DNA from: a virus
Lineage: Duplodnaviria; Caudoviricetes
Length of the DNA: 63,835 nt
Strand: one strand, 5' to 3'
IMG/VR virus record: IMGVR_UViG_3300007515_000008
Span: 1-63,835 of that record
Shown: positions 18,774-44,924 of the stretch, in pieces
Layout: every line of letters begins with the position of its first letter
Position numbering within the stretch: position 1 is the stretch's first letter
Position numbers and translations under genes: made by a program
Notes under the pieces: generated by a model
Told to the model about the DNA's origin: nothing
The model's database searches: none
What the model saw: the letters and a program-made list of their open reading frames with translations, nothing else

Positions 18774-21700
18774 ATGGGTAAGTATACTGGTGGTAAAAGT
18801 TCTGCTAATCAAAAAACAGATCTTAAAAAACCTAAGTTTAATATGGAAGGTTTCAAACCTTCTGAAGAAGACGCTGGTAATATTGAAAGAAAACGATTAG
18901 CTTTATCACAAGCAGCTAAAAAAGCCTCGCAAATTGAAAGAGATCAAAGAGGTAAAGAAATACCTGAATATTCTAAAGAATGGTCTGAAGCTCGTAGAGC
19001 TAGACTTGAAAGGCAATTAGCTCAACAAGAATATGAAAAAGTTTTAATGAACTTAGATCAACAATCAAGTCTTAATAATGATTTAATTGATGATGTTTAT
19101 GGAGGTACTCAAGATACTACTGGTCAAATAGGTACACCTATAGTAGAAGAAGCAACAGCTCCTGAACAAACAATATATTCTACTCCAGAAGAAGCTCCTG
19201 ATACAGGCACGGGTTTTCCTGGAAATGAACCTGAATCATTAGGTGTGGGTCCTGGAGGAATAGCTGTTACCGATCCTATTGGAACTATGTCTAAAGCTCC
19301 TTTAATAGAGGCTATATTATCTATACCTCAGGAACAAAGAACTACATGGATGTGGAATCAACTTGATGAGCATGGTCCTGAACATTATGATAGGATGCAA
19401 GCTGTAGATCGTGAGATGGTAGATCAAGATGAAGATACTGGAGATCGTCCAAGTCCTATAAGTAAGGTTCAAATACCATACCAAGAAAAAATGCAGATGA
19501 TGCATGATAGTCATGAGATGGGTAGGCAAATACAAAGAGAGATGGATAGACTCTGGGAATCAGGTCAACTTTATGCAAATCAACCAGGACAACCGGGTTG
19601 GGATCGTGCAGATAATGCGGCTATGCTTCAACGTATTAAAGATGGTGAGTTTACAGTAGAATCTGTTCGTGATTTTATGGAAGGTATAGTTACTACTCAT
19701 GAAGAATTAGCGAGAAGAGGTGTTCCTAATGCTCTTTCTGATGTTATGTTACATTCAGTATTACATCAGATAAGAGAGGCTTATAGAAGAAAAGGAGATC
19801 CTGATGATATTAGAGGGCGTGAAGAAGCTATAAGAGATTCTGGTGCTGCACCAACTACTCAAGAAGAAAATGACCAGAGAATAGTTATGAGAGCTCACGA
19901 CCATCGTGAGATAGGTAACTTAATTCTTGGAGCTATGGGTATAGCGCCTGATAGTCGTAATGTTAATAATACTACAGCAGGTACTATTGCTAATAATATG
20001 GTAGCAAAAGTATTTCCAGATTTATTTTATAAAGATTCAAAAGGTAATACTGTAGTTTCTCAAGAAGGTTTTAATACAGCAGAACGTATGCTTCCTATGA
20101 CACAAACTATATTACCACAAGTTAAAATAGGTGTTAGATTTAAAAAGAAAACTACTCAAAGTAATATACAACGACCTCGTTCAGGAGATAAAGATGTTTA
20201 TTATGGAGATTATGATTTAGTTAATGACACTATAGATGTTCTTGATAATCAAGCATGGACAATTGATCAAGATTTTGTTAGAGTTGTAGATGCTCTTGTT
20301 CAATCTGTTGAAACAGATGTTAATGGTAATGTTGTTCTTACAAATATAGATAAATTAATTGGTATAGGTCCAGAAGATACCGGTCAATTAAATAATAGAA
20401 CAGGTGAGCGTAGAAAGAAAGATCCTAGAACAGGACGAGATGTTCTTGATGAAAATGGTCAACCAGTAATGGAATGGTACGCAGGAGATAGAATTAAAGA
20501 TGTTATCTTCAATGATAATATGGATTGGGCTATAGCATTAGGTAATGATAGATTTTATTATGATCACTTTTTAGGTGGAAATAATAGATTTTATATTTCA
20601 CAGTTTGTTGGTAATTATCATAGTCATAAATTAGCTAGAGCTATGTTAATGGCTGATTTTATAGAAATGTATGATACTTCAAATCCTGTTACATTAATGG
20701 AATTAAAAGCAGGAATTGCTAAAAAGTTTGGAAAAAATAAAATGGGTGTTCAAGCAGCTGCAGATTATTTTGATGCTAACATTCAAAGATGGTCTAATAT
20801 GATGGACAATATTAGAGAAGATGGTAAAGCTATTATTGATTTAGCTTATGATAATGATGGATGGGCTTCTGTTAGCGCTTTAACCGAAGCTAAAAAACTA
20901 TTTGATCATTTACGAGATGTTGAAGCAGGTAAATCTAATACAGTATATACATCTAAATTTCTTACTGAGATTGATGGAACAGGAAATGGATTAGCTCATA
21001 ATGCTTTACAAGCTGGTGATTTTAATACAGCATTATTAACTAATATTAATCCTTATTTTAATGCTCCAAAAGGCACTGCTAGAGTAGATAAAGATGGTAA
21101 TTTATTAGAGCATGATGTATATCATGTTACTGGTTCTGGGTTAAAAGCTCAATTAGAATCATTAGCTGATGAAGCAGATGCTGATTATCTTAATCAAGCT
21201 TTTGTAGCATTAGGTCTTATAAATGATAAAACAAGAAGAGATTTTTCAAAAGCACCTTTAATGATATTTCAATATGGAGCAGGTAGAAATTTAATAAAAA
21301 GAATTGTTCGTGAAAATGTATTGTTAATGTTAGAAGATGAAGGTACTTTAAATGCTTTTAATCAGGTAGCTATAGCAATGGGTAAAGATCCTAAAACTAA
21401 AGCACAGATACAAGAAGCTATAGAAGCTGGTGATTTTGAAGGTAGTTCTAATTATAGAGATGCTGATTGGATCATTGATCGTATGGGTGATATGATGGTT
21501 AAGTCTGTAGAAAGTAATTTTCCCATGCTTAAAGACTTAAGTAATATATTATCATCAATGGCTAATGCTGCTTCACTTCATCAACCACCTATTGATTTAT
21601 CAGTTATTACTATAGGTGGGCATCGTATTAATTTTGGCCATACTATGTGGGAGAAAGATGAGGTTAGATCTTTTGTAGATACTGTAAATAAAGGAGATTA

Positions 21701-22421
21701 CAAACAATCTACAAAGTTTGATGTAGCTGAGAAGAATTTATATCCACAAGGTAGAACTATCTTTACTAAAACTAAAGAAGGTAGAGATATTCAAATGAAA
21801 AGAAAGGCTACAGGAACTGAGCCTAATCCTTTTTATAGAAATGATTGGAAAGAACATCCTATTTTTAATCCTCCAGAAGTTCCAATAGGAACTTTAAAAG
21901 CTGCAACTCAAGCAGCGGTATTAATGACTCACTCACTTGATGGTATAAATGTGGCATTATCATTAACACAATTTAAGAAAGATCATACTCAAGCAGGTGT
22001 AGCCCAAATATTTGATGGCTTTTTAGTAACACCAAAAATGGCTAGACAATTAGCTACACAACTTAATAAAGATTTTCTTGATATAAATTTTGGGAAAGGT
22101 GGGCGTTCAAGAACATCAGGTCATGGTATTCTTGGTCCAGAAGATACTGTAGCTGATGCTCGTAAAGATGCTAAAAACTTAAATCTATACAATCCAGATA
22201 CACGATATGATTTCTTAATGAATAATCCTAATAATAGTAATGTATTATTATTATATAGAGCTATGGCTAGATTAGGATTTAGATGGGACGACTATAAAGG
22301 TGGTGGTCTTGTTGAAAGAATTAAAAAGTTTGAACAACAAAGAAAAGCTTATCGTAAGAAATTCTTAAAGAAAGATGGTACTTTAAACTATGATTCTACT
22401 AAGCAATACTTTTGGGATTAA
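18774..22421 (+). CDS. Putative virion-encapsidated single-subunit RNA polymerase (N4 vRNAP-like)
   Basis: FLGGNNRFY (DxxGR-equivalent), motif A EIDGTGNG, motif B RDFSKAPLMIFQYG, THSLDG, motif C QIFDGF; last gene of the ejection cluster. Confidence 0.85.
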   Translation: MGKYTGGKSSANQKTDLKKPKFNMEGFKPSEEDAGNIERKRLALSQAAKKASQIERDQRGKEIPEYSKEWSEARRARLERQLAQQEYEKVLMNLDQQSSLNNDLIDDVYGGTQDTTGQIGTPIVEEATAPEQTIYSTPEEAPDTGTGFPGNEPESLGVGPGGIAVTDPIGTMSKAPLIEAILSIPQEQRTTWMWNQLDEHGPEHYDRMQAVDREMVDQDEDTGDRPSPISKVQIPYQEKMQMMHDSHEMGRQIQREMDRLWESGQLYANQPGQPGWDRADNAAMLQRIKDGEFTVESVRDFMEGIVTTHEELARRGVPNALSDVMLHSVLHQIREAYRRKGDPDDIRGREEAIRDSGAAPTTQEENDQRIVMRAHDHREIGNLILGAMGIAPDSRNVNNTTAGTIANNMVAKVFPDLFYKDSKGNTVVSQEGFNTAERMLPMTQTILPQVKIGVRFKKKTTQSNIQRPRSGDKDVYYGDYDLVNDTIDVLDNQAWTIDQDFVRVVDALVQSVETDVNGNVVLTNIDKLIGIGPEDTGQLNNRTGERRKKDPRTGRDVLDENGQPVMEWYAGDRIKDVIFNDNMDWAIALGNDRFYYDHFLGGNNRFYISQFVGNYHSHKLARAMLMADFIEMYDTSNPVTLMELKAGIAKKFGKNKMGVQAAADYFDANIQRWSNMMDNIREDGKAIIDLAYDNDGWASVSALTEAKKLFDHLRDVEAGKSNTVYTSKFLTEIDGTGNGLAHNALQAGDFNTALLTNINPYFNAPKGTARVDKDGNLLEHDVYHVTGSGLKAQLESLADEADADYLNQAFVALGLINDKTRRDFSKAPLMIFQYGAGRNLIKRIVRENVLLMLEDEGTLNAFNQVAIAMGKDPKTKAQIQEAIEAGDFEGSSNYRDADWIIDRMGDMMVKSVESNFPMLKDLSNILSSMANAASLHQPPIDLSVITIGGHRINFGHTMWEKDEVRSFVDTVNKGDYKQSTKFDVAEKNLYPQGRTIFTKTKEGRDIQMKRKATGTEPNPFYRNDWKEHPIFNPPEVPIGTLKAATQAAVLMTHSLDGINVALSLTQFKKDHTQAGVAQIFDGFLVTPKMARQLATQLNKDFLDINFGKGGRSRTSGHGILGPEDTVADARKDAKNLNLYNPDTRYDFLMNNPNNSNVLLLYRAMARLGFRWDDYKGGGLVERIKKFEQQRKAYRKKFLKKDGTLNYDSTKQYFWD

Positions 22422-22423
22422 AT

Positions 22424-22470
22424 AAAAAAAACCTACACAGGTCATTACGACTCGTGTAGGTATTTTTTTT
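22424..22470. terminator. Bidirectional intrinsic terminator between the convergent arms
   Basis: A-run, ACCTACAC...GTGTAGGT stem, T-run, between stops at 22421 (+) and 22470 (-). Confidence 0.9.
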
Positions 22471-22787
22471 TACTTGTTAGCTGTGTAACTCTTAATAGCT
22501 TTGTCAACAACCTTTCGTCTTCGCGCTGCTTCCATAGTTGCTTTCTTTACTGCATCTTCTTGGTTCATTCCTTGACGTGTTAATACATTAGCATCCTCGA
22601 TCATGTTTAATTTTTCAATCTCACCTGCTACGTATGCATGAACATCATTACCTTTAAGATTAGGTGGTCGATCTGCATCTGTTCCACCTTTCAATATTGC
22701 TACAGCATCTAACAACTCAGCATCAGTAACACCTGTTCTAGCTAAGATGTTACTATTTTCTTCGAAGTCGTATTTTCCTTCTGCCAT
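22470..22787 (-). CDS. Hypothetical protein
   Basis: 105-aa ORF with RBS, last gene of the - arm. Confidence 0.6.
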   Translation of the reverse strand: MAEGKYDFEENSNILARTGVTDAELLDAVAILKGGTDADRPPNLKGNDVHAYVAGEIEKLNMIEDANVLTRQGMNQEDAVKKATMEAARRRKVVDKAIKSYTANK

Positions 22788-22945
22788 TCTTCTTTCTCCT
22801 TTTCATTTGCATCCATATAGGTTATTAAACCTTGTACAGGATGTACATTATCATCTATCACAAACGGACCATATTCTATAACCCATGTGGATTTCTCTCT
22901 TTCTGTGTCATCAACTACAGTAAACATAGCTTTGCATGTAGCCAT
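22742..22945 (-). CDS. Hypothetical protein
   Basis: 67-aa ORF, TAATG-coupled to the upstream gene. Confidence 0.5.
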   Translation of the reverse strand: MATCKAMFTVVDDTEREKSTWVIEYGPFVIDDNVHPVQGLITYMDANEKEKEEWQKENTTSKKIVTS

Positions 22946-23232
22946 TACTTATCTCCATCTACTAAGTTGTACCCATATATTGCCATACTTTTAAGTAAAC
23001 TTTGCAAAGCAGTTTCAGCAGCAACAGCTAAATCTTCTGATACATTGCCGTCTGAAGCTATACTGTGAGCAGCATTGGTCATTTGCCATAACTGGACACC
23101 AATGTTGCCACCAGAACACAAGTTTTCTGTATGTTGTTTATCATCTATTTTTTTTACTGTCATATCATCTCCATATTTTTTAAGTCTTTCATTATAATTA
23201 TTTAACATCTGACTTCTTGTTTCGTCAACCAT
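22945..23232 (-). CDS. Hypothetical protein
   Basis: TAAGGAGG RBS before MVDETRS. Confidence 0.55.
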   Translation of the reverse strand: MVDETRSQMLNNYNERLKKYGDDMTVKKIDDKQHTENLCSGGNIGVQLWQMTNAAHSIASDGNVSEDLAVAAETALQSLLKSMAIYGYNLVDGDK

Positions 23233-23367
23233 AATGGTATCCTCCTTATTACTTTTTCCAGTCACTTCTCCAGAGTCTGGGGTTTTTTTTAGTTAAATCT
23301 CTCTGTAGTTCTGAGGTCTTATCCTTTTGAACAAGACCCCAGTTTTCTTTCTTTTTCTTCGAGTCTT

Positions 23368-23469
23368 TTAAAGCCACGATACTAATAACAATACTACTAC
23401 AATTGCTACAAATATCATAAGGCTTTTATTACCCGTTAGTTTCATAAGGCTTTTAGTCTTAAGATCCAT
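23368..23469 (-). CDS. 33-aa membrane micro-protein (not in ORF track)
   Basis: GGAG RBS; MDLKTKSLMKLTGNKSLMIFVAIVVVLLLVSWL*. Confidence 0.5.
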   Translation of the reverse strand: MDLKTKSLMKLTGNKSLMIFVAIVVVLLLVSWL

Positions 23470-23480
23470 TTTACTCTCCG

Positions 23481-23723
23481 TTAATCAGATAATTCTTTCG
23501 TGATGTCTTTATCTAATAATTTCCAGATAATGGCTGCGGCTATAAGGCCCGCCAGTCCAGCATTACCGAGCGTCCACACTATATCTAGTATACTACCGAT
23601 AACGTTCCCAGTTAGGAATGCTACTTGACTACCAAATATAATTTGAAGCACAATTGATAAGCTGATTAACTTAATGCCTACATCGATCGCGGCATCAGCT
23701 CCGTTCTTTATTTTATCTAACAT
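23481..23723 (-). CDS. Small two-TM membrane protein
   Basis: 80 aa, two hydrophobic helices (IVLQIIFG; LGNAGLAGLIAAAIIW), AGGAG RBS. Confidence 0.7.
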   Translation of the reverse strand: MLDKIKNGADAAIDVGIKLISLSIVLQIIFGSQVAFLTGNVIGSILDIVWTLGNAGLAGLIAAAIIWKLLDKDITKELSD

Positions 23724-23745
23724 GCTATCTCCTATAAAATTAAAA

Positions 23746-24711
23746 TCACCAACCCCACTCTCCTACCATACCAACCGTAGAATAGTCTGTTACAGTTTTC
23801 TCAAAGAAATTACTAAGAGAATCACCTGAGGTTAAATCTTCAACCCAAGGTAAAGGATTAGTCTTTACTTTAAAGTTTCCTTTAAAGCCTAGTTGGATTA
23901 ATCTTCTATCAGCTAAGTATTTTATATAATCTTTAACCTCTTTCTTATCTAAGCCTTCAATATCTCCGGCTGCATAAGCAAGATCAATCACTTTTTCTTC
24001 TAACTTAACTACTTTTCTAGCCATTTCATATATATCTGACTTGAATTCATCAGTTAGAATTCTACTATGCTCTCCACAAAACTCTCTAAACAACTTACTC
24101 ATTCCTTCAACATGTAGAGTTTCGTCACGTATACTCCATTCTATAACTGTTCCCATGCCCTTCATTTTACCACGTCTCTGATAATTCAGTAGCATAGCGA
24201 AAGCTGAGAATAAAGTTACTCCTTCATTAAATACAGATAGAGCTATAGATTTAGCTATTCCTTGGTGGGAATTAACATCTGCACCTCTCATGAAGTTTGC
24301 TTTGTTTACCATTTGTTTATATTCTAAGAATGTACTGTATTCTTTTTCATGTAAACCTAGTGTATCATTCAGTAAGGCATAAGCCCTCTGGTGTATACCT
24401 TCCCTTGCTGCGATCGATAATAACATTGATCTAATTTCATTATTAGGGAATTTAGGTATATAAAAGTCGCAGTAATTCTGAGCCACAATAACATCAGCTG
24501 AGGTAAACAACCTAAGTATAGATGTTATATGTTCTTTCTCAACATCAAGTAACTCTCCGTTTTTCCATTGAGTTACGTCTTCAGCTAGGTTTATTTCTTT
24601 TTCTGTCCAATGTATATCCTCATGTTGCTCAGCTAATTCTATAGCCCAAGGAAATTGGAACGGTTTAAATACTATATTTTCTTCCATTAATCCCATAATA
24701 TCACCCCTCAC
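23746..24711 (-). CDS. nrdB: Ribonucleotide reductase class Ia beta subunit
   Basis: HWTEKE, EGIHQRAY, EGVTLFSAF, WSIRDETLH, NFFE...DY ferritin-like motifs; start may be 24696. Confidence 0.95.
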   Translation of the reverse strand: MRGDIMGLMEENIVFKPFQFPWAIELAEQHEDIHWTEKEINLAEDVTQWKNGELLDVEKEHITSILRLFTSADVIVAQNYCDFYIPKFPNNEIRSMLLSIAAREGIHQRAYALLNDTLGLHEKEYSTFLEYKQMVNKANFMRGADVNSHQGIAKSIALSVFNEGVTLFSAFAMLLNYQRRGKMKGMGTVIEWSIRDETLHVEGMSKLFREFCGEHSRILTDEFKSDIYEMARKVVKLEEKVIDLAYAAGDIEGLDKKEVKDYIKYLADRRLIQLGFKGNFKVKTNPLPWVEDLTSGDSLSNFFEKTVTDYSTVGMVGEWGW

Positions 24712-26476: not shown

Positions 26477-26478
26477 TT

Positions 26479-26682: not shown

Positions 26683-26692
26683 ATCTTTCTCC

Positions 26693-28087: not shown

Positions 28088-28101
28088 ATTATTACTCCTT
28101 A

Positions 28102-29725: not shown

Positions 29726-29735
29726 ATTACTGTTT

Positions 29736-36141: not shown

Positions 36142-36155
36142 ATTATTACTCCTTA

Positions 36156-36413: not shown

Positions 36414-36426
36414 TTGTTACTCCTTA

Positions 36427-37442: not shown

Positions 37443-37457
37443 ATTACCTCCTTCGTT

Positions 37458-37727
37458 TTATCCTGGTAAATCTTCTTCTTTATGACCTTGAAAAGCTTTA
37501 TCAGAATTTTTATAATTAACAATATTACTTAATATTTCTAAAACATCCTCATCTGAACATTTACCTCTTCCTAATTGGTCGACTAAATCTTCTAATGATT
37601 CTAATAAGTTAAAATGCTCATATTCTATATCACATTCTAAACATATAGGTGGGATAAGTATTTTACCGTCAGGATCTTCATAAGTTAAAGCATCAGAAGA
37701 ACCACATTTATTACAAATTACACTCAT
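37458..37727 (-). CDS. Small Zn-finger protein
   Basis: CNKC...CLEC; AAGGAGG RBS before MSVIC. Confidence 0.55.
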   Translation of the reverse strand: MSVICNKCGSSDALTYEDPDGKILIPPICLECDIEYEHFNLLESLEDLVDQLGRGKCSDEDVLEILSNIVNYKNSDKAFQGHKEEDLPG

Positions 37728-37738
37728 ATTACCTCCTT

Positions 37739-38035
37739 TTATAGTAGTTTTTCCCATTGATATTCATCTGTAGAAGTTTGGTATACTTTTTCAGGTCTTT
37801 TGTATTGCTCGTCATTACCCATTTCATACCGTTCGGCTTCACGGTTTGTTTTATATTCTAAAGCAGAGTCTTCGTCTTCTCTTATTCTTTTGTAATGTTC
37901 TTCATCTGTTATTACATATAGAATTTGCCATTTTATCCACCAACTATATACTTCATTTAAATTATATGGTAGTTTATAATAGTCTTGAGTCGAATGCCAA
38001 GCTTCAACTAAAAAACTTGTTTTTTCTTTACTCAT
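37739..38035 (-). CDS. Hypothetical early protein
   Basis: ORF with GGAGGT RBS, ATGA overlap. Confidence 0.55.
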   Translation of the reverse strand: MSKEKTSFLVEAWHSTQDYYKLPYNLNEVYSWWIKWQILYVITDEEHYKRIREDEDSALEYKTNREAERYEMGNDEQYKRPEKVYQTSTDEYQWEKLL

Positions 38036-38334
38036 TTTATTTTCACCTCCCTTATTATTATTTTAGATATATCATGTACTTCATTCCATCCAATATTTAA
38101 AGTTGGATGTCTATGCATTCTTACATGATCCATAGACAGAATATCAGCTATGATTTCTCTATTTAATGGTTTTAATTCCAGTGAATATAATTCAGCTTTA
38201 CTATCTGGTGTCGCATATTTTATTATTTCTAAAGCTTTTACAGCTTTGTCTTTGCGTCCATAATATTTGCTGAATATTAATTCATCTGTAATTTCATGCC
38301 AATAATGTTTATTTGTTATTTCATATACTATCAT
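38032..38334 (-). CDS. Hypothetical early protein
   Basis: ORF with TAAGGAG RBS. Confidence 0.55.
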   Translation of the reverse strand: MIVYEITNKHYWHEITDELIFSKYYGRKDKAVKALEIIKYATPDSKAELYSLELKPLNREIIADILSMDHVRMHRHPTLNIGWNEVHDISKIIIREVKIK

Positions 38335-38463
38335 TATTACTCCTTATATATACATGTGCCATAAGTATGGTAAATATCCAATACATAATCCTACCACAAA
38401 ACCTTTGAATTGTTCTGCGTATTTCGGATTTTTATAATGTTCATATTTAATCATATTATCCTC

Positions 38464-39030
38464 CTATGCTCTAAAGTAATAACCATCTTCTTCAAAATAG
38501 TCATACATAAGTTCATGAGCAGCAGATTCCCAATCTATGCAATTCATCGGCCAATCCTCTCCACCTTCATCAAATCCAAGTGTTTCAGATGCCATTTCTC
38601 TTGCAAAGTCTTCATCATCATCATAATAACCTATATAACTTTCTTCTATATCACATAATTCCATATAGTTTTCTAAGGCAGCATTAACAGCTGCAATAGG
38701 TATGTGCTCATTATCTCTTAAGAATTCGATATATTCAAATATCTCATCCATTTCCATTGCTTCATCACTTTCTACACCATCAGGCCAATCTTGAAAATCT
38801 TGAAACATAAATTCAGGATCGTCTTCATCTTCGTGTATTTGCATACAACGTTCTAAGAAATCTTGTTCATTACCATAGTCAGCTATCGTTACCCACTCAC
38901 CATGTAGATCACCTTCGGCATATTTCTTATAAGTTCCAACATATACTTTTATTTCTTCTATTGCTTTTTCACGTTCTGTTTGTTCAGTATATTTTTGAAA
39001 CGCTCTTAGTTCTTCTGTTGTCATTGCCAT
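38464..39030 (-). CDS. ardA: Antirestriction protein ArdA (DNA mimic)
   Basis: VYVGTYKKY..G.L.GEW, PEFMFQD, YIGYYDDDEDFA, IDWESAAHEL..DY, GYYFR; highly acidic. Confidence 0.88.
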   Translation of the reverse strand: MAMTTEELRAFQKYTEQTEREKAIEEIKVYVGTYKKYAEGDLHGEWVTIADYGNEQDFLERCMQIHEDEDDPEFMFQDFQDWPDGVESDEAMEMDEIFEYIEFLRDNEHIPIAAVNAALENYMELCDIEESYIGYYDDDEDFAREMASETLGFDEGGEDWPMNCIDWESAAHELMYDYFEEDGYYFRA

Positions 39031-39173
39031 TTTTCACCTTCCTTATTTTTATTTGTTGATTTTAATTTGCTAAGCTTTCTTTGGAGCTTCAAGTTCTTAG
39101 CATATTGCTTCACGGCAATATCGTGCGCCGCTTTTTGTACTTTTTCTGATTTATTCATATTATTTCCTTATGA

Positions 39174-39347
39174 TTATATTTCTTTTATCCAACCTACGCA
39201 TAGTTGCGCGTCTTCTGGTTCACATACCAGAGGATCTGCACTATTTTGTAGGACCCTTTGCTCGTTAAACTTTTCTTCTAACGAGCTGCATCCAGTTATT
39301 AATGTGACTAATAACTGTAATACTATTATTAAAGCTATAGTTTTCAT
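39174..39347 (-). CDS. 57-aa lipoprotein (not in ORF track), possible superinfection exclusion
   Basis: TAAGGAG RBS; MKTIALIIVLQLLVTLITG-C lipobox. Confidence 0.6.
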   Translation of the reverse strand: MKTIALIIVLQLLVTLITGCSSLEEKFNEQRVLQNSADPLVCEPEDAQLCVGWIKEI

Positions 39348-39865
39348 CTAGTGTAACTCCTTATTGTATCTGAATCAAGTTCTATTTGATCTAACAAATC
39401 TTGTATTTCATCTTGATTCATTTCTTGTAGTTCTTTGATCTTATCCATGTGTTTCTTGATTCTTACCTTAGCATTAAATAACCATGTGTTATGACTATCT
39501 TCTGCATAATACACATCGAAATATTCAGCGTGTTTATGTGGTAAGTATTGATCATAGTATCTACGATTATGTCCATCAGCTAGAGCGTGTTTAACTCTTG
39601 GACCACGTGGCATGAGACGAACTCTCATAAGTGAATTCCAATTACCTAATTCCCAGTTACGTTTTAAAGCGAATTTTCTGGCATGAGCATTATGCTTAGC
39701 AGCTTTCTTCTTTAAATCCAAAACTAATGGATGTTTCTTGTGACTAACGGTAAAACGATACATTAGAGAACCTCTTTTTTCGTGGTTCATTTTGATTTCG
39801 TTATCACCTAGATAATTAGTGTCGTTTGATAATCTCAAGACACTAGTGTGTTTTGCTTTTTTCAC
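39344..39865 (-). CDS. Hypothetical basic early protein
   Basis: 173 aa, GTG start with TAAGGAG RBS. Confidence 0.6.
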   Translation of the reverse strand: MKKAKHTSVLRLSNDTNYLGDNEIKMNHEKRGSLMYRFTVSHKKHPLVLDLKKKAAKHNAHARKFALKRNWELGNWNSLMRVRLMPRGPRVKHALADGHNRRYYDQYLPHKHAEYFDVYYAEDSHNTWLFNAKVRIKKHMDKIKELQEMNQDEIQDLLDQIELDSDTIRSYTR

Positions 39866-39893
39866 GTTATACTCCTTATATTATTATTATATT

Positions 39894-40268
39894 TTACCAC
39901 GGATAGACTCTTGCAGAGCCAGCATCGTGCCATTCAATAATGCAATTATTATTATCTGCAATATTTTCAAGTTCTGAATGAATCCAAGGACAGCCATTAC
40001 AACTGCCATAACCCTCGTATTCTCCGTAGTAGTTTAACCACTTGTAGCTGTGTGGTTCTTCAGCACTTATACCAAATGAAGTCGCACGACCTTTTTCGTC
40101 TTCTTCATATGATCCGTCAGAGTAGGTTTCAAATATAGGTACATTACCTATACTTTTGCCTTCAATATCTTCAACATATAATTTCTTCATTTGATTTAGT
40201 GCAGTTCTTAAATTTCTTTTCATTTTCATTTTATTACTCCTTTGTTTTATGTAATGGATCTTTTTCAA
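39894..40268 (-). CDS. Hypothetical early protein
   Basis: ORF; likely start about 40229 after AAGGAG. Confidence 0.55.
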   Translation of the reverse strand: MKKIHYIKQRSNKMKMKRNLRTALNQMKKLYVEDIEGKSIGNVPIFETYSDGSYEEDEKGRATSFGISAEEPHSYKWLNYYGEYEGYGSCNGCPWIHSELENIADNNNCIIEWHDAGSARVYPW

Positions 40269-40755
40269 GTTCGATTTTTATTCTTTCTAATCGATCTTTT
40301 AATAATGGATTTACATACTTTAAATCGACTTCTGGCATCCAATATTCCCATAATGCTAACATGATATCGCCAAATGGTCCATTTTCCCAACGATCAAACA
40401 TGTTTATGTTGTTTAAACGGTCTATCGGACTACATCTGCGGAAACATTGTTTTGCTATTCTTTCGATTTCAGTATATATTTCCTTATTCGTACATTCACC
40501 AGATTCAATCATAGCAACAATAATCTCAGCAGTTGAATCTTTTGCAAGATTAATAACTACTTGAGTTTTTTGATACGTATTATTGTTGTATAAGTGTATT
40601 AGTTGCTCAATATCATCGTTATCCAATTCATATAAATGATCTGGATTAGATCTATTTAGCAGTTTTTGTACGCTTTCTCTTAGCTTTATATCGCCGTGCG
40701 ACATTGCTCTTTTTAACTTTGACATAGCTTTTACCTCCAAAGTATTGTTGAACAT
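40234..40755 (-). CDS. Hypothetical early protein
   Basis: ORF; likely start MSKLK at about 40725 after GGAGGT. Confidence 0.55.
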   Translation of the reverse strand: MFNNTLEVKAMSKLKRAMSHGDIKLRESVQKLLNRSNPDHLYELDNDDIEQLIHLYNNNTYQKTQVVINLAKDSTAEIIVAMIESGECTNKEIYTEIERIAKQCFRRCSPIDRLNNINMFDRWENGPFGDIMLALWEYWMPEVDLKYVNPLLKDRLERIKIELEKDPLHKTKE

Positions 40756-40915
40756 CTACCCATAATGGGTAGTTCCCATCTTTATCTTTATCAAACTTGG
40801 TATATGTTACACCATTTTTAGTTTGATATGTGATAAAAATTCCTTTTTCTTTGAGTTTACTAGCAACCCAACTTAGTCGTCTTAAGGTCGACCATTTCTT
40901 TTTAGTCTTTTTCAT
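40652..40915 (-). CDS. Hypothetical basic protein
   Basis: 87-aa Lys-rich ORF with GGAG RBS. Confidence 0.5.
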   Translation of the reverse strand: MKKTKKKWSTLRRLSWVASKLKEKGIFITYQTKNGVTYTKFDKDKDGNYPLWVDVQQYFGGKSYVKVKKSNVARRYKAKRKRTKTAK

Positions 40916-40916
40916 A

Positions 40917-41219
40917 TTATCTCCATCCTAGTTTCTTTTCAAGATATTGCACGTTGTTTTTTAATTGGAAGTTATCTTCATTCATCATATGATTTTCATT
41001 TTGTAATCGAAATATTGTCGCTTCCATTTCTAAACTGTCTTGCATTAATTTATCATATCGCTCTGCCCATGCTTCTAGTGATTCATTGTCTTCTATATCT
41101 TTTTCAATTTCAGTTTTTTGTTTTTGAACTTTATCTTTTATATATTGTTCTTTAACTTTTTCTAATATTTCAGAATTATCTACTATATCACATGCTTTTG
41201 TATATTCATTTATACTCAT
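40917..41219 (-). CDS. Coiled-coil early protein
   Basis: ORF with TAAGGAG RBS. Confidence 0.55.
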   Translation of the reverse strand: MSINEYTKACDIVDNSEILEKVKEQYIKDKVQKQKTEIEKDIEDNESLEAWAERYDKLMQDSLEMEATIFRLQNENHMMNEDNFQLKNNVQYLEKKLGWR

Positions 41220-41229
41220 ATTATACTCC

Positions 41230-41445
41230 TTATTCTAAGTTTTTCTTGACTTGTTCGTCAAATTGTTGGAATGAATGACAGTTACAGTATCTTTCTTGGT
41301 GTATTGCAGCTACCAATTCAAGATTTGGATGTATTAAACTGTCACATTTTTTACAGCGCTCACCTTCAGCCGCTATAATGTTTTTAATGTATGTTTGGTA
41401 CATTAATTTTTTTGTTGCTAATAACATTTTGTTTCTCCTTTTCAA
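41230..41445 (-). CDS. Small Cys-containing protein
   Basis: CKKC...CNCH; likely start MLLAT after AAGGAG. Confidence 0.5.
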   Translation of the reverse strand: MKRRNKMLLATKKLMYQTYIKNIIAAEGERCKKCDSLIHPNLELVAAIHQERYCNCHSFQQFDEQVKKNLE

Positions 41446-41451
41446 AAATTA

Positions 41452-41507
41452 AAATTACATTTGTAAAACTACATTTGCGAAGCTACATTTGCGAAACTAC
41501 ATTTGTC
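41452..41507. repeat. 4 x 14-bp tandem repeat (AAACTACATTTGCG consensus)
   Basis: aaattacatttgta, aaactacatttgcg, aagctacatttgcg, aaactacatttgtc; intergenic. Confidence 0.9.
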
Positions 41508-41731
41508 GCACTGACCTTAACGAACTCTATCGTCTACAGTGGCTTGGCTTATCTACCTACCATGCCCTGATTTCGGTTTTAAGTCCTGTTTAAAATAACC
41601 TCTCTTACATTTCAATCTATATATTTTCTTGAAGATAGTACTCCTTATATAGATGGTTAAGATCTCTTTCTTTTATGTCTCGAAATCTTTAAGACTTTTC
41701 ATTTCATAGGCATCTCCTTATATTTATGAAA

Positions 41732-42007
41732 TTATTGTGTTACTTCTTTAAGTGATACAGCAAGCTTTTCAATACAATCAAGTTCATGAATACCTTCTTG
41801 AATTACATTGAGCAAAATATGGTGTTTCAATTCTGCTGTTGTTGTAACATCAGGTGGTATTCTAACACAAAACATTTGATCTTTATTTGTTTCAGCTATT
41901 TCTATCGCTTTTTCTGGAATTATCTTATTGTGACCAACTAACCAAGCTACCTGGTCTTTTTCAGTTAATTCCGCAGTCCAGTCTTTTGGACTATCTCTTA
42001 TAATCAT
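41732..42007 (-). CDS. Hypothetical early protein
   Basis: ORF with AGGAG RBS. Confidence 0.55.
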   Translation of the reverse strand: MIIRDSPKDWTAELTEKDQVAWLVGHNKIIPEKAIEIAETNKDQMFCVRIPPDVTTTAELKHHILLNVIQEGIHELDCIEKLAVSLKEVTQ

Positions 42008-42131
42008 GATCTTTCTCCTATCATGAGTGATTCTTACTAATCAGTGTTAATAATTCTTAACTGATCGTAAGCTAGAAAAGCAATGAGAGCAACTGACGCT
42101 GCTCCCATCACTATAAGCAATATCACCAGCA

Positions 42132-42470
42132 TTAAGCTTGTGTTTCTTCTGGTAATATTTCGACGACTTTGTAAGCGTTCACAAAGACATCTGTTTTCCA
42201 AGAACCGTCGACATTTTTCTCTGTCTTCTCGATTCTTGCTTCTACAGATACTTTCGTACCCTTCTTAAGTCCTTCGATCGCTTTGCGAGCGGTATTCGCG
42301 AACACAGTCACGAACCACCATGTGGGTTCTCTTTTAACCCAAGACTTTGTAGTCTCATCATAGTAGTCGTTTGATTCAGCGATACGGAGCTTTCCAAACT
42401 CCTTACCGTTTTTCGCTTTACCCATTTCTGAGTCTTGGCCTAAATGACCAACAAACGTTAACTTTGCCAT
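42132..42470 (-). CDS. ssb: Bacterial-type single-stranded DNA-binding protein (OB fold, no acidic tail)
   Basis: LTFVGHLGQDSE...LRIA...PTWWFVTVF...LKKGTKVSVEARI. Confidence 0.85.
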   Translation of the reverse strand: MAKLTFVGHLGQDSEMGKAKNGKEFGKLRIAESNDYYDETTKSWVKREPTWWFVTVFANTARKAIEGLKKGTKVSVEARIEKTEKNVDGSWKTDVFVNAYKVVEILPEETQA

Positions 42471-42487
42471 AATAATTCTCCTTATAA

Positions 42488-42647
42488 TGACAGTTTATGC
42501 CCGAATAGCCCATCTATTCGGATCGGTTTAAGGATCGACGATCCTTATGTGAGCACACTCACACTAAACTGGAATGTACTCAGATAAAGAAAGTGAGCAG
42601 TTTTAACACATGTGACCACGCTCAGGATAACGTGTCTGCTCAGGTGC
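42488..42647 (-). promoter_or_regulatory. Structured RNA leader upstream of ssb
   Basis: Several stems with G-U pairs in - sense; loop CAGTTTA is complementary to TAAACTG near the RBS. Confidence 0.6.
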
Positions 42648-42658
42648 GGAGAGTTTAT

Positions 42659-42892
42659 TTAAGTGTATCCTGGATGACCTTTTTCTTTCATTCTTTTAAC
42701 ATGGTCATCATGTAGATCACTTCTATTACTACAGTCTACACTATTGTGATCAGTATATTCTATACATAATGCAGTTAAATGTTTCTTTAATCTCCATTTG
42801 CTTAAAGGTATAAAATCATCTAATCTATCTTCTAAATCATCTATTTTATATTCAAGATGTTGTATTTTCTTCATTAGTTCTTTTGTTGACAT
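42659..42892 (-). CDS. Hypothetical early protein
   Basis: ORF with TAAGGAG RBS. Confidence 0.55.
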   Translation of the reverse strand: MSTKELMKKIQHLEYKIDDLEDRLDDFIPLSKWRLKKHLTALCIEYTDHNSVDCSNRSDLHDDHVKRMKEKGHPGYT

Positions 42893-42954
42893 ATATTACT
42901 CCTTATAATTAAAAAATGCGGCCTTTTTACTTGGATACCGCAGCAAGGTCGACC

Positions 42955-43146
42955 TTAGATCTCGTTGTATCGCTCTTTCCAGCGTACGAATTCTTCATAG
43001 AGTTCTGGATCATCGAATTTTAGCTCTATGATTGGAGCTTCTAATTCGTTGAGCGACATTTGTCGCATCTCAAATGATCCTTCAGCTCCCATGAATTCTT
43101 CATAGAGAACGAGATCGTTTCTGGCTTTCGCCATTTTCTCAACCAT
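42955..43146 (-). CDS. Hypothetical early protein
   Basis: ORF with AAGGAGG RBS. Confidence 0.55.
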   Translation of the reverse strand: MVEKMAKARNDLVLYEEFMGAEGSFEMRQMSLNELEAPIIELKFDDPELYEEFVRWKERYNEI

Positions 43147-43494
43147 GATAACCTCCTTTAGTTATTATAGTTTATTAGAAATATGATTAGAAATATTAAA
43201 GAGACTGCTAAAATCTTCCACAATCTCTTCATTTCTGAATCCCAAGCAAATGTTCTTTCGATCCATTTGTTCTTCATTATATCTCCTTATATTTAATCTC
43301 AGCTTCATTACTAAGATTCGATCAAGTGATCGGCAATAGGACCTCTTTCGAAGCCCTATTAACTGTCACTTATATTTGTCATTGATGCGATCGTTCATGT
43401 CCATGAAGAACGGAACGAATACACAACATAATCCAATGATACCAAATACAAATATCATTAGATGAATCGCGAAATGTTCTAACATAATAGTCTC

Positions 43495-43806
43495 CTATGA
43501 TTTAGAAGGTATAGGCTCGATAAGATCTTTCACTTCTATCAAGTGTCTTACAACATCTCGAGCGTCTAGATACTTTAAAGTATCATCAGTAATATGAGTA
43601 TCGTAAGTAATATCACCTTTCTGATCTAGCACTGCCATCTCGAAATAGCGAACATCTTTACTGATACTGTATTCATCGGGTTTTCTATATACATTGTACA
43701 TAGTGTTCACGACGCTGGCTCCATAACCATTAGGGAATTTATATATCGTCACAAATCCATAAGAATTCTCCCTTTCTTTCACGATATATTGGTCGAAATC
43801 TGACAT
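43495..43806 (-). CDS. Conserved phage early protein
   Basis: YKFPNGYGASVV...EMAVL...ITYDT motif recalled from other phages. Confidence 0.65.
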   Translation of the reverse strand: MSDFDQYIVKERENSYGFVTIYKFPNGYGASVVNTMYNVYRKPDEYSISKDVRYFEMAVLDQKGDITYDTHITDDTLKYLDARDVVRHLIEVKDLIEPIPSKS

Positions 43807-43842
43807 AATAATCTCCTTATAATGTCGTTAAAAAGATCATAG

Positions 43843-43864
43843 ATTCGACCACTCCCTTATAGAG
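43843..43864 (+). promoter_or_regulatory. Candidate phage RNAP promoter for the late arm, ATTCGACCACTCCCTTATAGAG
   Basis: Exact inverted copy of 32379..32400; intergenic; points toward terminase and structural genes. Confidence 0.7.
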
Positions 43865-43951
43865 AAGAAATATAAGGTAAGACTGAATGAATCTGAATCT
43901 ATGATATTCCCTTGGGCAAGGAATTAGATAATCCCTATATGCCCAAAGCAA

Positions 43952-44242
43952 TTATAGACAGCCCCATTTCTTGAGCTGTGATTTACTAAAATCTCCATAC
44001 TGTTGCAGATTTTTAAGATCTTCTGCTTCTTCTTGGAGTCTTTCTTTGTGTTCAGCATTAGCTTTATCACAAAGATCCTTTAGTTCTATCTGACGATCTT
44101 TTTCAGATAATTTAGAGAATTCGTTTCTTGAGAATTCTCCAGGTCTTGAACCAAATACATCTTTAAAAGCATCACTAAAGAATTGTAGATCAGCTTCTAA
44201 AGGTGTGTAATCTTGCCACGGATCTCTACGTTTTACTGACAT
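43952..44242 (-). CDS. Hypothetical early protein
   Basis: FFSDAFKDVFGSRP motif; AAGGAG RBS. Confidence 0.6.
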   Translation of the reverse strand: MSVKRRDPWQDYTPLEADLQFFSDAFKDVFGSRPGEFSRNEFSKLSEKDRQIELKDLCDKANAEHKERLQEEAEDLKNLQQYGDFSKSQLKKWGCL

Positions 44243-44432
44243 AATACTCTCCTTTATAATTAAGGATCACATGGTTTAAAGTCTCGTGATCTAAAAAGAC
44301 TATGTTAATAAACTGTAAGATCACAGTGTATTAAGATAATCTTTGGGTAAGACAAAGCGTGCAATCACAGTGTCACCTTGTGGTCAACATGTGGTATCTA
44401 CAAAGTAATTACACGCATATATCTCTTATCTC

Positions 44433-44765
44433 TTATCTCTTCCAGGCTCCGATCGTGTTGAGGCCTATAGACTCAAGATCGTCCGCAGAGAATACATCCT
44501 CTGGAGAGACCGTAACAGTCTTAATGTAAGAGAAGTGGTTATCCCTAAGATCTACTTGCACTTCGGCTTGTAATGCATCATTAAACCAGATGTGAGTGTG
44601 ATCACCCAGAATAGAGTGAGTCCACTTAGTAGAGTTATGGACGTACGATACTACATTCTTAATGGCTTGCTTGCTAAGGCTAGCGATGTAGTGACTACGA
44701 TCTGTTGGATTTAGATCGTTTAGTTTTTTGATCATTGATTGATCGGGATTTAATTTGTATTTCAT
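44433..44765 (-). CDS. First gene of the early arm, hypothetical
   Basis: 110-aa ORF with AAGGAG RBS. Confidence 0.6.
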   Translation of the reverse strand: MKYKLNPDQSMIKKLNDLNPTDRSHYIASLSKQAIKNVVSYVHNSTKWTHSILGDHTHIWFNDALQAEVQVDLRDNHFSYIKTVTVSPEDVFSADDLESIGLNTIGAWKR

Positions 44766-44820
44766 TTGATATCTCCTTTATTATTATAAAAGTGCATAGT
44801 AAATAATGCACATGAGCTCT

Positions 44821-44876
44821 TGATCTTGATCTCTTATCTCTGATCTCTTGATCTGAAGCTCGGGGGCACTTGATCT
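44821..44876. repeat. Cluster of five TGATCT hexamers and ATCTCTT heptamers at the divergent junction
   Basis: TGATCT at 44821, 44827, 44841, 44849 and 44871; ATCTCTT x3 also at 44421..44441. Confidence 0.8.
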
Positions 44877-44924
44877 TATGCTCGTAGGCTCTTTATATAG
44901 ATTTAACCCACAGGTGATAAACAT

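What the first reader, a model, noticed from the sequence alone, without database searches (positions are those of the whole stretch)
18774..44924. Two distinct single-subunit RNAPs implying a host-RNAP-independent three-stage programme
Seen: a vRNAP-like gene in the late arm, an unsplit T7-like RNAP at the distal end of the early genes, and two identical T7-like promoters facing the middle and late genes. Established: Autographiviridae have one RNAP and use host RNAP early; N4-like phages have vRNAP plus a split RNAP II and use host RNAP late. Inference: injected vRNAP transcribes early genes including RNAP2, then RNAP2 drives both middle and late arms, so host RNAP may never be needed. I know of no described phage group with this combination on an SU10-type capsid; this is my best candidate for the undescribed system.
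Basis: partly seen in the sequence, partly recalled or inferred. Interest (0 to 1): 0.92.

Follow-up and report, generated by a model that had tools for sequence, protein, structure and literature searches.

The report
Podovirus with two single-subunit RNA polymerases
This complete 64-kb phage genome carries two different T7-family RNA polymerases, one of them sitting among the proteins that are shot into the cell, so the phage may start and run its own transcription with little or no help from the host enzyme.

Summary
The window is a whole 63,835-bp phage genome with an SU10-type capsid gene. Its closest cultured relative is roseophage CRP-7.

- **RNAP-B** (32400-34865, minus strand, 821 aa) is a clear T7-type enzyme.
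- **RNAP-A** (18774-22421, plus strand, 1215 aa) is a very divergent single-subunit RNAP with motifs A, B and C intact. It is the last gene of the structural arm, behind two giant virion-type proteins, the same slot as N4 gp50.
- **Promoters:** an exact 22-nt T7-type promoter occurs twice. One copy abuts the RNAP-B stop codon and faces the replication genes. The other lies 11.4 kb away on the other strand and faces the structural arm.
- **Relatives:** in four related metagenomic genomes the same pair sits at the same places. The CC-TATAG core is invariant and the upstream half is clade-specific. The promoter tracks RNAP-B (88% identical where the promoter is shared), not RNAP-A (54%).
- **Both polymerases** co-occur in 9 of 10 related contigs examined.
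- **New here:** CRP-7 gp33, annotated hypothetical, folds as a single-subunit RNAP at the same slot.

That RNAP-A is packaged and makes the early transcripts, and that host RNAP is dispensable, remain inference. I found no early promoter and have no virion data. Verdict: a new variant of a known kind.

The parts
18774..22421 (+). RNAP-A: 1215-aa divergent single-subunit RNA polymerase, last gene of the structural arm; candidate virion/ejected polymerase
   Evidence: PF00940 E 7e-8, phrog_414; motifs A/B/C invariant in 13 homologues; model Z 23.0 to T7 RNAP, 17.4 to N4 mini-vRNAP; same position in 6 of 6 genomes read
14129..18760 (+). 1543-aa giant virion-type protein just upstream of RNAP-A; candidate ejection protein
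   Evidence: phrog_6958 virion structural protein E 1.7e-17; homologous at both ends to CRP-7 gp34 (blastp 4e-17, 4e-16)
11960..14119 (+). 719-aa protein with no family match, first of the three large end-of-arm genes; candidate ejection protein (by position only)
   Evidence: no PHROG or Pfam hit; a 503-815-aa gene precedes the giant gene in 6 of 6 genomes
22422..22469 (.). bidirectional terminator-like hairpin between the converging arms
   Evidence: sequence; fold -19.6 kcal/mol, z -6.0, 0 of 200 shuffles as stable
22470..32340 (-). middle genes downstream of the first promoter copy: MazG, ThyX, gp2.5-like SSB, helicase, RecE-like exonuclease, RusA, RNR large and small subunits
   Evidence: PHROG and Pfam matches
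32379..32400 (-). T7-type promoter copy 1, overlapping the RNAP-B stop codon; predicted +1 G at 32381; faces the middle genes
   Evidence: syntenic copies in G001-G004
32400..34865 (-). RNAP-B: unsplit 821-aa T7-type RNA polymerase at the distal end of the early unit
   Evidence: PF00940 E 3.8e-70, phrog_414 E 1.6e-109; motif alignment with T7 RNAP
34866..44765 (-). early unit: about 35 small ORFs with strong Shine-Dalgarno sites, including ArdA (38464-39030), an SSB-like gene (42132-42470) and primase (35170-36141)
43843..43864 (+). T7-type promoter copy 2; predicted +1 G at 43862; points toward the structural arm, antisense to two early ORFs
   Evidence: conserved with 1 mismatch in G001
43865..43950 (+). 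non-coding leader after promoter copy 2, far better conserved than neighbouring genes (a 50-nt run identical in G001)
   Evidence: pairwise alignment; no significant fold (z -0.08)
44862..44913 (.). inter-arm element: G5-6, about 24 nt, TATATATATAT, yACmCACAG; one per genome; candidate genome end/pac site or early promoter
   Evidence: regex found one copy in each of G000, G002, G003 and G004; the G001 copy comes from the alignments
45195..45312 (+). structured element ending in a hairpin plus U-run, between promoter copy 2 and terS; about 95% identical in G001
   Evidence: fold -38 kcal/mol, z -5.33, 0 of 200 shuffles; alignment; terminator-like site; no Rfam match
45331..52513 (+). start of the late arm: terS-like gene (45331-45687), TerL (45696-47336), portal (47327-49522), scaffold (50361-51497), SU10-type capsid (51515-52513)

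Best explanation
This is the complete genome of an uncultured CRP-7-type podovirus that runs a cascade of two single-subunit RNA polymerases. Shown: RNAP-B is a T7-type enzyme encoded at the far end of the leftward early unit. An exact 22-nt T7-type promoter abuts its stop codon and faces the nucleotide-metabolism and replication genes. The only other copy faces the 41-kb structural arm. Inferred with good support: RNAP-B reads both copies, giving middle expression and at least part of late expression. Inferred from position and analogy with N4 gp50: RNAP-A is made late as the last gene of the structural operon, after two giant virion-type proteins. It is then packaged, ejected with the DNA in the next infection, and transcribes the early unit including RNAP-B. 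If so, host RNAP may be dispensable, but that last step is the weakest.
For: Both polymerases are real, and motifs A, B and C are kept. RNAP-A follows the 1543-aa virion-type gene by 13 nt, and a strong bidirectional terminator comes after it. N4 gp50 is likewise the last late gene, converging on the replication arm next to virion proteins. The trio of a 503-815-aa gene, a 1345-1543-aa gene and RNAP-A recurs in 6 of 6 genomes read. Of 10 related IMG/VR contigs searched with PF00940, 9 hold a T7-type RNAP of 812-832 codons (open frame) as well as RNAP-A. The tenth is a fragment rated 15% complete. The RNAP-A profile reaches N4-like virion RNAPs (phrog_2206) at E 1.8e-14 to 8e-12, but the one T7-type hit I checked only at 1.4e-4. 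A family member's only cultured-phage hits are N4-like vRNAPs. RNAP-A is the least conserved large orthologue between G000 and G001 (54%, against 64-94% for the others). Promoter evidence: 11 sites in 5 genomes share an invariant CC-TATAG core with a genome-specific upstream half. The placement matches T7 phi1.1A, 26 nt after gene 1. The promoter is identical in G000 and G001, where RNAP-B and its specificity-loop region are nearly identical. The late arm has almost no intergenic space and no other promoter copy.
Against: There is no evidence of packaging. RNAP-A is about the size of N4 mini-vRNAP alone. It lacks anything like the N- and C-terminal parts of the 3500-aa N4 gp50 that flank the 1106-aa mini-vRNAP core (residues 998-2103; passage read). 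Their roles in injection and encapsidation are recalled, not seen in a call. Its aa 1-430 look like an ordinary RNAP N-terminal domain (Atlas score 0.80, a lead only). Structurally it is nearer T7 and mitochondrial RNAP (Z 23) than N4 mini-vRNAP (Z 17.4). hhalign gave T7 E 0.0017 against N4 E 0.13. I identified no early promoter of any kind. The sigma-70 scan is at chance (52 against 52.0 expected) and the host is unknown, so host transcription of the early unit is not excluded. The late-facing promoter is 1.47 kb from terS, and a stable hairpin plus U-run lies between them, so late expression may need read-through or another polymerase. The promoter next to RNAP-B was seen in only 5 of the 10 genomes checked (G000 and nine relatives).
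Confidence: 0.55

Rival explanations
1. The programme is T7-like plus an extra polymerase. Host RNAP transcribes the early unit including RNAP-B, as in T7. RNAP-B then does middle and late transcription. RNAP-A is not packaged and has a specialised intracellular job late in infection, for example transcription across concatemer junctions, priming, or boosting late genes.
For: RNAP-B, its promoter form and the promoter's placement after the polymerase gene are T7-like. RNAP-A lacks N4-style flanking domains and is structurally nearer T7 RNAP. A second T7-like RNAP outside the ejection module is reported in Vibrio phage Peru-2 (passages read). The first early genes include ArdA-type host-takeover genes, as in T7.
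Against: There is no convincing host-type promoter upstream of the early unit; the scan is at chance. A polymerase encoded as the very last gene of a 41-kb late operon arrives too late to drive that operon. It sits fixed behind giant virion-type proteins in 6 of 6 genomes and also in CRP-7.
Confidence: 0.3
2. The logic is fully N4-like. RNAP-A is ejected and makes the early RNAs, and RNAP-B makes the middle RNAs. The structural arm, however, is transcribed by host RNAP with a phage activator. The late-facing RNAP-B promoter makes only a roughly 1.45-kb antisense or leader RNA that ends at the hairpin plus U-run at 45255-45305.
For: A strongly structured, conserved element ending in a U-run lies between promoter copy 2 and terS (z -5.33). 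The transcript would be antisense to the first two early ORFs. N4 uses host RNAP for late genes (abstract in the listing and passages, PMC4496689).
Against: I saw no host-type or other promoter in the 25 nt between that element and terS, nor in the few late-arm gaps. In G002 the same promoter is followed by about 650 nt of non-coding sequence and then directly by + strand genes.
Confidence: 0.1
3. The 22-nt inverted pair is not a promoter but a recombination or inversion site flanking the 11.4-kb early segment, or another protein-binding site.
For: It is a perfect inverted repeat that flanks a discrete block.
Against: The segment has the same orientation relative to its flanks in 5 of 5 genomes. 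No recombinase turned up among the annotated ORFs. The motif has the bipartite form of T7-type promoters, with an invariant TATAG and a variable upstream half, and the same placement as T7 phi1.1A.
Confidence: 0.03

Closest known systems
Roseobacter phage CRP-7 (MK613349), the 'CRP-7-type' group of marine podoviruses
   Same: It is the closest cultured relative: portal 45% and capsid 43% identical. It has a homologous giant virion protein (gp34), scaffold and structural proteins, and a T7-type RNAP of 819 aa (gp30). A large gene, gp33, lies at the end of the structural arm. A close family member of gp33 (62% identical) folds as a single-subunit RNAP: Z 19.1 to mitochondrial RNAP, 18.2 to T7, 14.1 to N4; the top 50 entries listed by Foldseek and the 50 entries listed by VIA-align are all single-subunit RNAPs.
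   Different: gp33 and RNAP-A show no detectable sequence similarity. CRP-7 has its own DNA polymerase and places its RNAP after the replication genes. The window has no family-A DNA polymerase, and its RNAP-B lies before the nucleotide-metabolism and replication genes. In the passages I read, the CRP-7 paper names only ORF30 as an RNAP.
Coliphage N4 and Schitoviridae (vRNAP gp50 plus RNAPII gp15/gp16)
   Same: Two phage single-subunit-type RNAPs are used in sequence. The candidate virion enzyme is the last gene of the late arm, next to virion or ejection proteins, and converges on the replication arm. The nearest sequences outside the RNAP-A family in a profile search are N4-like vRNAPs.
   Different: gp50 is about 3500 aa with a central 1106-aa polymerase core; RNAP-A is 1215 aa in all. 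N4 RNAPII is a heterodimer (abstract and passages); RNAP-B is one chain. N4 late genes use host RNAP. The capsid here is SU10-type. No 3-nt-loop hairpin promoters were established here.
T7 and Autographiviridae
   Same: RNAP-B has T7 motifs A, B and C and the C-terminal foot. The promoter is bipartite, with TATAG at the start site, and a copy lies directly after the polymerase gene, like T7 phi1.1A/B.
   Different: Genes lie on two divergent and convergent arms, not on one strand. The capsid is SU10-type. There is no phage DNA polymerase. There are only two promoter copies. There is a second polymerase in the ejection-protein slot.
Vibrio phage Peru-2 (2026 preprint, PMC13320782)
   Same: It is a podovirus reported to encode two T7-like RNAPs (passages read).
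   Different: [quoted passage not shown]
phiKZ and AR9 jumbo phages
   Same: Their logic is a virion RNAP followed by a non-virion RNAP, and infection is reported rifampicin-resistant for phiKZ (abstracts in the listings).
   Different: Those enzymes are multisubunit two-barrel RNAPs in genomes above 200 kb. Here both are single-subunit enzymes in a 64-kb genome.

Membership tests
T7-type single-subunit RNAP (PF00940), for RNAP-B | Full-length PF00940 match above the curated cut-off | tested here: met
   E 3.8e-70, 237 bits against a cut-off of 22
T7-type single-subunit RNAP (PF00940), for RNAP-B | Catalytic motifs A (DG..NG.QH), B (R...K.......Y[GD]) and C (HDS), and a C-terminal aromatic foot, on a single chain | tested here: met
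   Alignment with T7 gene 1 protein: IDGSSNGTQH, RKGISKRGTMTKAYDAG, IHDSF, and a ...YFFC end; the ORF is one 821-aa chain
T7-type single-subunit RNAP fold, for RNAP-A | Right-hand polymerase fold superposable on T7 RNAP, with motifs A, B and C conserved | tested here: met
   Z 23.0, rmsd 3.6, 527 aligned to 1s76_D; D734, R822/K826/Y834/G835 and D1081 are invariant in 13 sequences
N4-type virion RNAP (gp50, phrog_2206), for RNAP-A | Giant polypeptide of about 3500 aa with a central polymerase core flanked by large N- and C-terminal domains | tested here: not met
   RNAP-A is 1215 aa. Relatives are 1141-1668 aa in the genomes read and 1017-1230 aa among the homologues. The N4 core alone is 1106 aa
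N4-type virion RNAP (gp50, phrog_2206), for RNAP-A | Sequence membership in the vRNAP family | tested here: not met
   The only PHROG hit is phrog_414. N4 gp50 scores 14.9 bits, E 7.5e-5, against the RNAP-A family HMM, about the same as RNAP-B. hhalign gives E 0.13. N4-like vRNAPs are, however, the best outgroup in the 1.84-billion-protein search
N4-type virion RNAP (gp50, phrog_2206), for RNAP-A | T/DxxGR motif | tested here: inconclusive
   At the aligned position RNAP-A has GGNNRFY; only the final R (R605) is invariant
N4-type virion RNAP (gp50, phrog_2206), for RNAP-A | Encoded at the end of the late arm beside virion or ejection proteins | tested here: met
N4-type virion RNAP (gp50, phrog_2206), for RNAP-A | Present in virions and ejected; transcribes early genes from hairpin promoters with a 3-nt loop | not testable with these tools
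   No proteome or transcript data are available. Hairpins exist upstream of the first early gene in several genomes, but with varied loops
T7-type promoter, for the 22-mer | Bipartite duplex element: a polymerase-specific upstream binding part and a conserved initiation part, repeated identically in the genome | tested here: met
   11 sites in 5 genomes; CC-TATAG is invariant; the upstream half is identical within a genome and differs between clades. The bipartite definition was read
T7-type promoter, for the 22-mer | Transcripts start at the G after TATA and depend on the phage RNAP | not testable with these tools
Autographiviridae (the phage as a whole) | All genes on one strand, a T7-type DNA polymerase and a T7-type capsid | tested here: not met
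   Two arms; no PF00476; capsid is PF17236 SU10_MCP
Schitoviridae (the phage as a whole) | Giant vRNAP plus split RNAPII | tested here: not met
CRP-7-type group (the phage as a whole) | Shared portal, capsid, scaffold and giant virion protein, plus a T7-type RNAP, with the same end-of-arm layout | tested here: met
   Only about 10 ORF pairs match at E <= 1e-3, so the relationship is distant

The most novel reading that the evidence does not exclude
A whole clade of 58-64-kb marine podoviruses, including cultured roseophage CRP-7, carries a compact RNA polymerase of about 1000-1700 aa as the third ejection protein, plus a T7-type RNAP. It may run early, middle and late transcription entirely on single-subunit phage enzymes. 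That would be the first host-RNAP-independent programme built only from T7-family polymerases. It would also be a minimal counterpart, or an independent invention, of the N4 giant vRNAP.
Probability: 0.35. Interest if true: 0.85.

Novelty: new variant of a known kind. Interest (0 to 1): 0.7.

Why it matters
Phage transcription strategies are textbook paradigms. T7 uses host RNAP and then one phage RNAP. N4 uses a virion RNAP, then a split RNAP II, then host RNAP. phiKZ uses two multisubunit phage RNAPs.

A compact single-subunit RNAP sitting in the ejection-protein slot beside an ordinary T7-type RNAP would be a fourth layout. It would show that recruiting a polymerase into the ejected protein set does not need the 3500-aa N4 architecture.

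Because CRP-7 is in culture, the idea can be tested directly. Both enzyme families and their short promoters could also be new orthogonal transcription parts.

RNAP-A and gp33 sit at the same genomic slot but have no detectable sequence similarity, so annotation pipelines miss them. Such polymerases may therefore be under-counted.

Tried and rejected
**Early promoters.** A sigma-70 consensus scan of 34800-45400 gave 52 sites against 52.0 expected, so it says nothing either way. I inspected the early intergenic gaps by eye and aligned them with G001. There are well-conserved non-coding blocks (44295-44441, 44862-44925) and hairpins, but no motif I could defend as an RNAP-A promoter.

**Further copies of the 22-mer.** There are none at up to 3 mismatches, none for the 15-mer at 3 mismatches or the 11-mer core at 1 mismatch, and one chance 8-mer inside a gene.

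**Known RNA families and tRNAs.** There were 0 Rfam matches, both at gathering thresholds over the whole window and at E <= 1 over 43700-45400, and 0 tRNAs.

**RNAP-A in cultured phages or cellular genomes.** tblastn of RNAP-A against 50,697 phage records gave no match. P0052 gave none. P0036 hit only N4-like Vibrio vRNAPs, in 4 records. A scan of GTDB species genomes gave 0 confirmed relatives among 51 pattern matches.

**Sequence link between CRP-7 gp33 and RNAP-A.** All the sequence methods failed: Pfam, hhalign of a single sequence and of profile against profile, and the family HMM. Only a motif register and then the fold showed that it is an RNAP.

**PDB by sequence with the RNAP-A profile.** The best hit was yeast mitochondrial RNAP, motif A only, at E 0.07.

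**Inversion-site reading of the inverted repeat.** Rejected; see the rivals.

**Literature.** Six searches found no description of a podovirus with a T7-type RNAP plus a compact RNAP in the ejection module. The library lacks most subscription journals, and supplements were closed. The supplementary ORF tables of the CRP-7 paper could bear on whether gp33 was ever flagged.

**Promoter downstream of RNAP-B.** It was present in only 5 of the 10 genomes checked (G000 and nine relatives). In G005 and G007-G009 the next gene starts at the stop codon, and G010 has a hairpin there instead.

Full report
**What the window is.** The window is the whole record: one contig of 63,835 bp, rated 100% complete. 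Coding strand and GC skew divide it into two parts. A minus-strand arm runs from 44765 down to 22470. A plus-strand arm starts near 44926, runs off the end of the record and continues from base 1 to 22421. Joining the end to the start closes the last ORF after 10 more codons, which fits a circularly permuted assembly.

The plus arm is structural:
- a terS-like gene, TerL, portal and scaffold;
- an SU10-type major capsid protein (PF17236, E 8e-78);
- many tail-fibre genes;
- then three large genes of 719, 1543 and 1215 codons.

The minus arm has three sections:
- about 35 small ORFs with strong Shine-Dalgarno sites, including ArdA, an SSB-like gene and a primase;
- then an 821-codon RNAP;
- then MazG, ThyX, a gp2.5-like SSB, helicase, RecE-like exonuclease, RusA and both RNR subunits.

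No family-A DNA polymerase is present. The arms converge on a strong bidirectional terminator-like hairpin at 22422-22469 (z -6.0).

**The two polymerases.** RNAP-B (32400-34865, minus strand) is an ordinary T7-type enzyme. It matches PF00940 at E 3.8e-70 and is about 25% identical to Autographiviridae RNAPs. Aligned with T7 gene 1 protein, it has motifs A, B and C and the C-terminal aromatic foot.

RNAP-A (18774-22421, plus strand) is far more divergent. It matches PF00940 at E 7e-8 over part of the domain, and has no tblastn match in 50,697 phage records. Thirteen metagenomic homologues of 28-100% identity keep motif A (DGTGNGLAH), motif B (R..K.......YG) and motif C (FDG) invariant.

A model of residues 401-1215 (pLDDT 70.5, pTM 0.72) superposes on several solved polymerases:

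| Solved structure | Z | rmsd | aligned residues |
|---|---|---|---|
| T7 RNAP | 23.0 | 3.6 | 527 |
| yeast mitochondrial RNAP | 22.8 | 3.2 | 498 |
| N4 mini-vRNAP | 17.4 | 5.7 | 574 |

A profile search of 1.84 billion representatives found 102 proteins at E <= 1e-3 and 62 at E <= 1e-10. Outside the family proper, the best hits are proteins of 2300-3071 aa. The three I checked are N4-type virion RNAPs (phrog_2206), at E 1.8e-14 to 8e-12. The one T7-type hit I checked appears only at 1.4e-4. Against N4 gp50 itself the link is weak: 14.9 bits and hhalign E 0.13. RNAP-A is therefore a separate deep branch of the single-subunit family, not a member of the gp50 family.

**The promoters.** The 22-mer ATTCGACCACTCCCTTATAGAG occurs exactly twice, as a perfect inverted pair. 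There are no other copies at up to 3 mismatches, and no shuffle gave two matches. The minus-strand copy overlaps the RNAP-B stop codon and lies 38 nt before the next gene's start codon. In T7, phi1.1A starts 26 nt after gene 1. The plus-strand copy at 43843 lies in an intergenic gap of the early arm.

Relatives give the decisive support. Four IMG/VR genomes (G001-G004) have a pair or a triple at the same two places. Eleven sites in five genomes share an invariant CC-TATAG. The upstream 12-14 nt are identical within a genome and differ between clades. That is the bipartite form of T7-type promoters as defined in the N4/T7 review (passage read).

G000 and G001 share the promoter (22 of 22 and 21 of 22). 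Their RNAP-B proteins are 88% identical, with a nearly identical specificity-loop region, while their RNAP-A proteins are only 54% identical. The promoter therefore belongs to RNAP-B.

A caveat: of the 10 genomes checked (G000 and nine relatives), only 5 show a repeated motif right after RNAP-B.

**How widespread the pair of polymerases is.** Of 15 IMG/VR loci found through RNAP-A, I searched the contigs of 10 with PF00940. Nine hold a T7-type RNAP of 812-832 codons (open frame) as well. The tenth is rated 15% complete. The other five loci lie on contigs of 7.7-19 kb and were not examined. In 6 of 6 genomes read in full, RNAP-A is the last gene of the structural arm. It follows a gene of 1345-1543 codons and one of 503-815 codons.

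**The cultured relative.** CRP-7 is the closest isolate: portal 45% and capsid 43% identical. The passages I read of its paper describe one RNAP (ORF30) and call the phage a new group.

CRP-7 gp34 is homologous to the window's 1543-aa protein. Its neighbour gp33 (1235 aa, annotated hypothetical) occupies the RNAP-A slot. Sequence methods see no RNAP in gp33.

The gp33 family alignment, however, has three invariant stretches:
- D-A-R-Q-S-N-A-G...G-D..TA..L.L.P, in register with motif A;
- K...R.......YGK, with motif B spacing;
- IHDA, at the motif C position.

A model of a family member 62% identical to gp33 (pLDDT 66.5) matches only single-subunit RNAPs: Foldseek's top 50 entries are all of that kind. 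By VIA-align, yeast mitochondrial RNAP scores Z 19.1, T7 RNAP 18.2 and N4 mini-vRNAP 14.1, over residues 30-1050. So the two-polymerase layout reaches a culturable phage, where it had apparently gone unnoticed.

**Mechanism: shown and inferred.** The two enzymes, the promoter pair and their conservation are shown. That RNAP-B reads the pair is well supported.

The inference is that RNAP-A is packaged and ejected and then transcribes the early unit. It rests on four points:
- Position: it is the last late gene, 13 nt after a virion-type gene, exactly as N4 gp50 lies.
- A polymerase made at the very end of the late operon has no obvious use in that cycle.
- It diverges fast.
- Its outgroup in the profile search is the vRNAPs.

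Against this reading:
- RNAP-A has little room for the extra domains that flank the polymerase core in N4 gp50. Residues 450-1215 already cover T7 residues 265-883, and residues 1-430 look like an RNAP N-terminal domain (a lead only).
- No early promoter was found.
- Host-type promoters cannot be judged.

Late transcription is also unsettled. The late arm has almost no intergenic space and no further promoter copy. The only upstream candidates are the 43843 promoter and the inter-arm element. A very stable structure ending in a U-run (z -5.33) lies just before terS.

**Unexplained elements.** An element of G5-6, about 24 nt, TATATATATAT and yACmCACAG occurs once per genome between the arms in G000-G004, although their polymerases are only 46-60% identical. 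In the window, arrays of 7-nt repeats lie on either side of the first early ORF. From recall, T7 genome ends look similar, with a terminal ...CACAG-type end followed by heptamer arrays, so this may mark the genome termini or a pac site. If so, the late-facing promoter would reach the late genes only across a circular or concatemer junction. It could instead be an early promoter.

**Comparison and verdict.** The system works like N4 in its first step (inferred) and like T7 in its second (well supported), on the chassis of an SU10-capsid, CRP-7-type podovirus. It is not a member of Autographiviridae or Schitoviridae by the features tested. Six literature searches found no description of this layout. 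The nearest reports are a second T7-like RNAP in Peru-2, at a different genomic position, and a split giant vRNAP in AltAD45 phages. I rate it a new variant of a known kind. Interest is 0.7, because a cultured member makes the key claims directly testable.

Noticed in passing
L016:17859-21566 (-), CRP-7 gp33: This 'hypothetical protein' of a cultured roseophage occupies the RNAP-A slot. Through a close family member (62% identical), it folds as a single-subunit RNAP (Z 19.1, 18.2 and 14.1 to mitochondrial, T7 and N4 enzymes). Motif A/B/C-like invariant residues are present. Pfam, hhalign and HMMs all miss it.
   Followed up: yes
window 44862-44913: An inter-arm element (G5-6, about 24 nt, TATATATATAT, yACmCACAG) occurs once per genome in G000-G004 despite deep divergence. 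It may be a genome end or pac site, or an early promoter.
   Followed up: partly
window 44420-44441 and 44813-44854: Arrays of 7-nt repeats (TATCTCT x3.1; TGATCTC-type x about 5) lie on either side of the first early ORF (44433-44765). From recall, they resemble the heptamer arrays beside T7 terminal repeats.
   Followed up: no
window 45195-45312: A 118-nt element just before terS is about 95% identical in G001 and folds very stably (-38 kcal/mol, z -5.33). It ends in a hairpin plus U-run and matches no Rfam family. Part of it (TACAGAG.TCTCAACAGAG) recurs in G002.
   Followed up: partly
window 43865-43950: The leader after the late-facing promoter is conserved (a 50-nt run is identical in G001), while the flanking early genes have diverged. 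It has no significant predicted RNA structure (z -0.08).
   Followed up: partly
window 41450-41506: Four tandem 14-nt repeats (unit TAAAACTACATTTG on the + strand) lie in an early intergenic gap. They look like iterons and may be an origin or a binding array.
   Followed up: no
whole window: There is no family-A DNA polymerase gene (PF00476: 0 matches), although primase, helicase, SSB, exonuclease, RusA and RNR are present. CRP-7 does have a DNA polymerase.
   Followed up: partly
window 54037-55063 within ORF 53688-56033: A long array with 36-nt periodicity (16 copies in register) lies inside a tail-fibre gene.
   Followed up: no
window 59647-63834 and 1-30: The record ends inside a DUF7483 tail-fibre gene. 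Joining the end to the start closes the ORF after 10 codons. There is no terminal overlap, so the contig is probably a permuted, nearly closed circle.
   Followed up: partly
window 22470-44765 (- arm gene starts): Nearly every gene has a strong TAAGGAG-type Shine-Dalgarno site. By inference, this argues against a Bacteroidota host despite the 35% G+C. There are no tRNA genes, and no relatives of RNAP-A in GTDB genomes.
   Followed up: partly
CRP-7 record: 2028 (+), 7149 (+), 14766 (+), 38278 (-): A repeated motif, AGTCC(C/A)(C/T)TATTAAAAGG, occurs at least 4 times in CRP-7. One copy lies just before its RNAP gene. It is a candidate phage promoter.
   Followed up: no
window 52514-52572: A G+C-rich hairpin plus T-run lies directly after the capsid gene. 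It looks like the attenuator commonly found after phage capsid genes.
   Followed up: no
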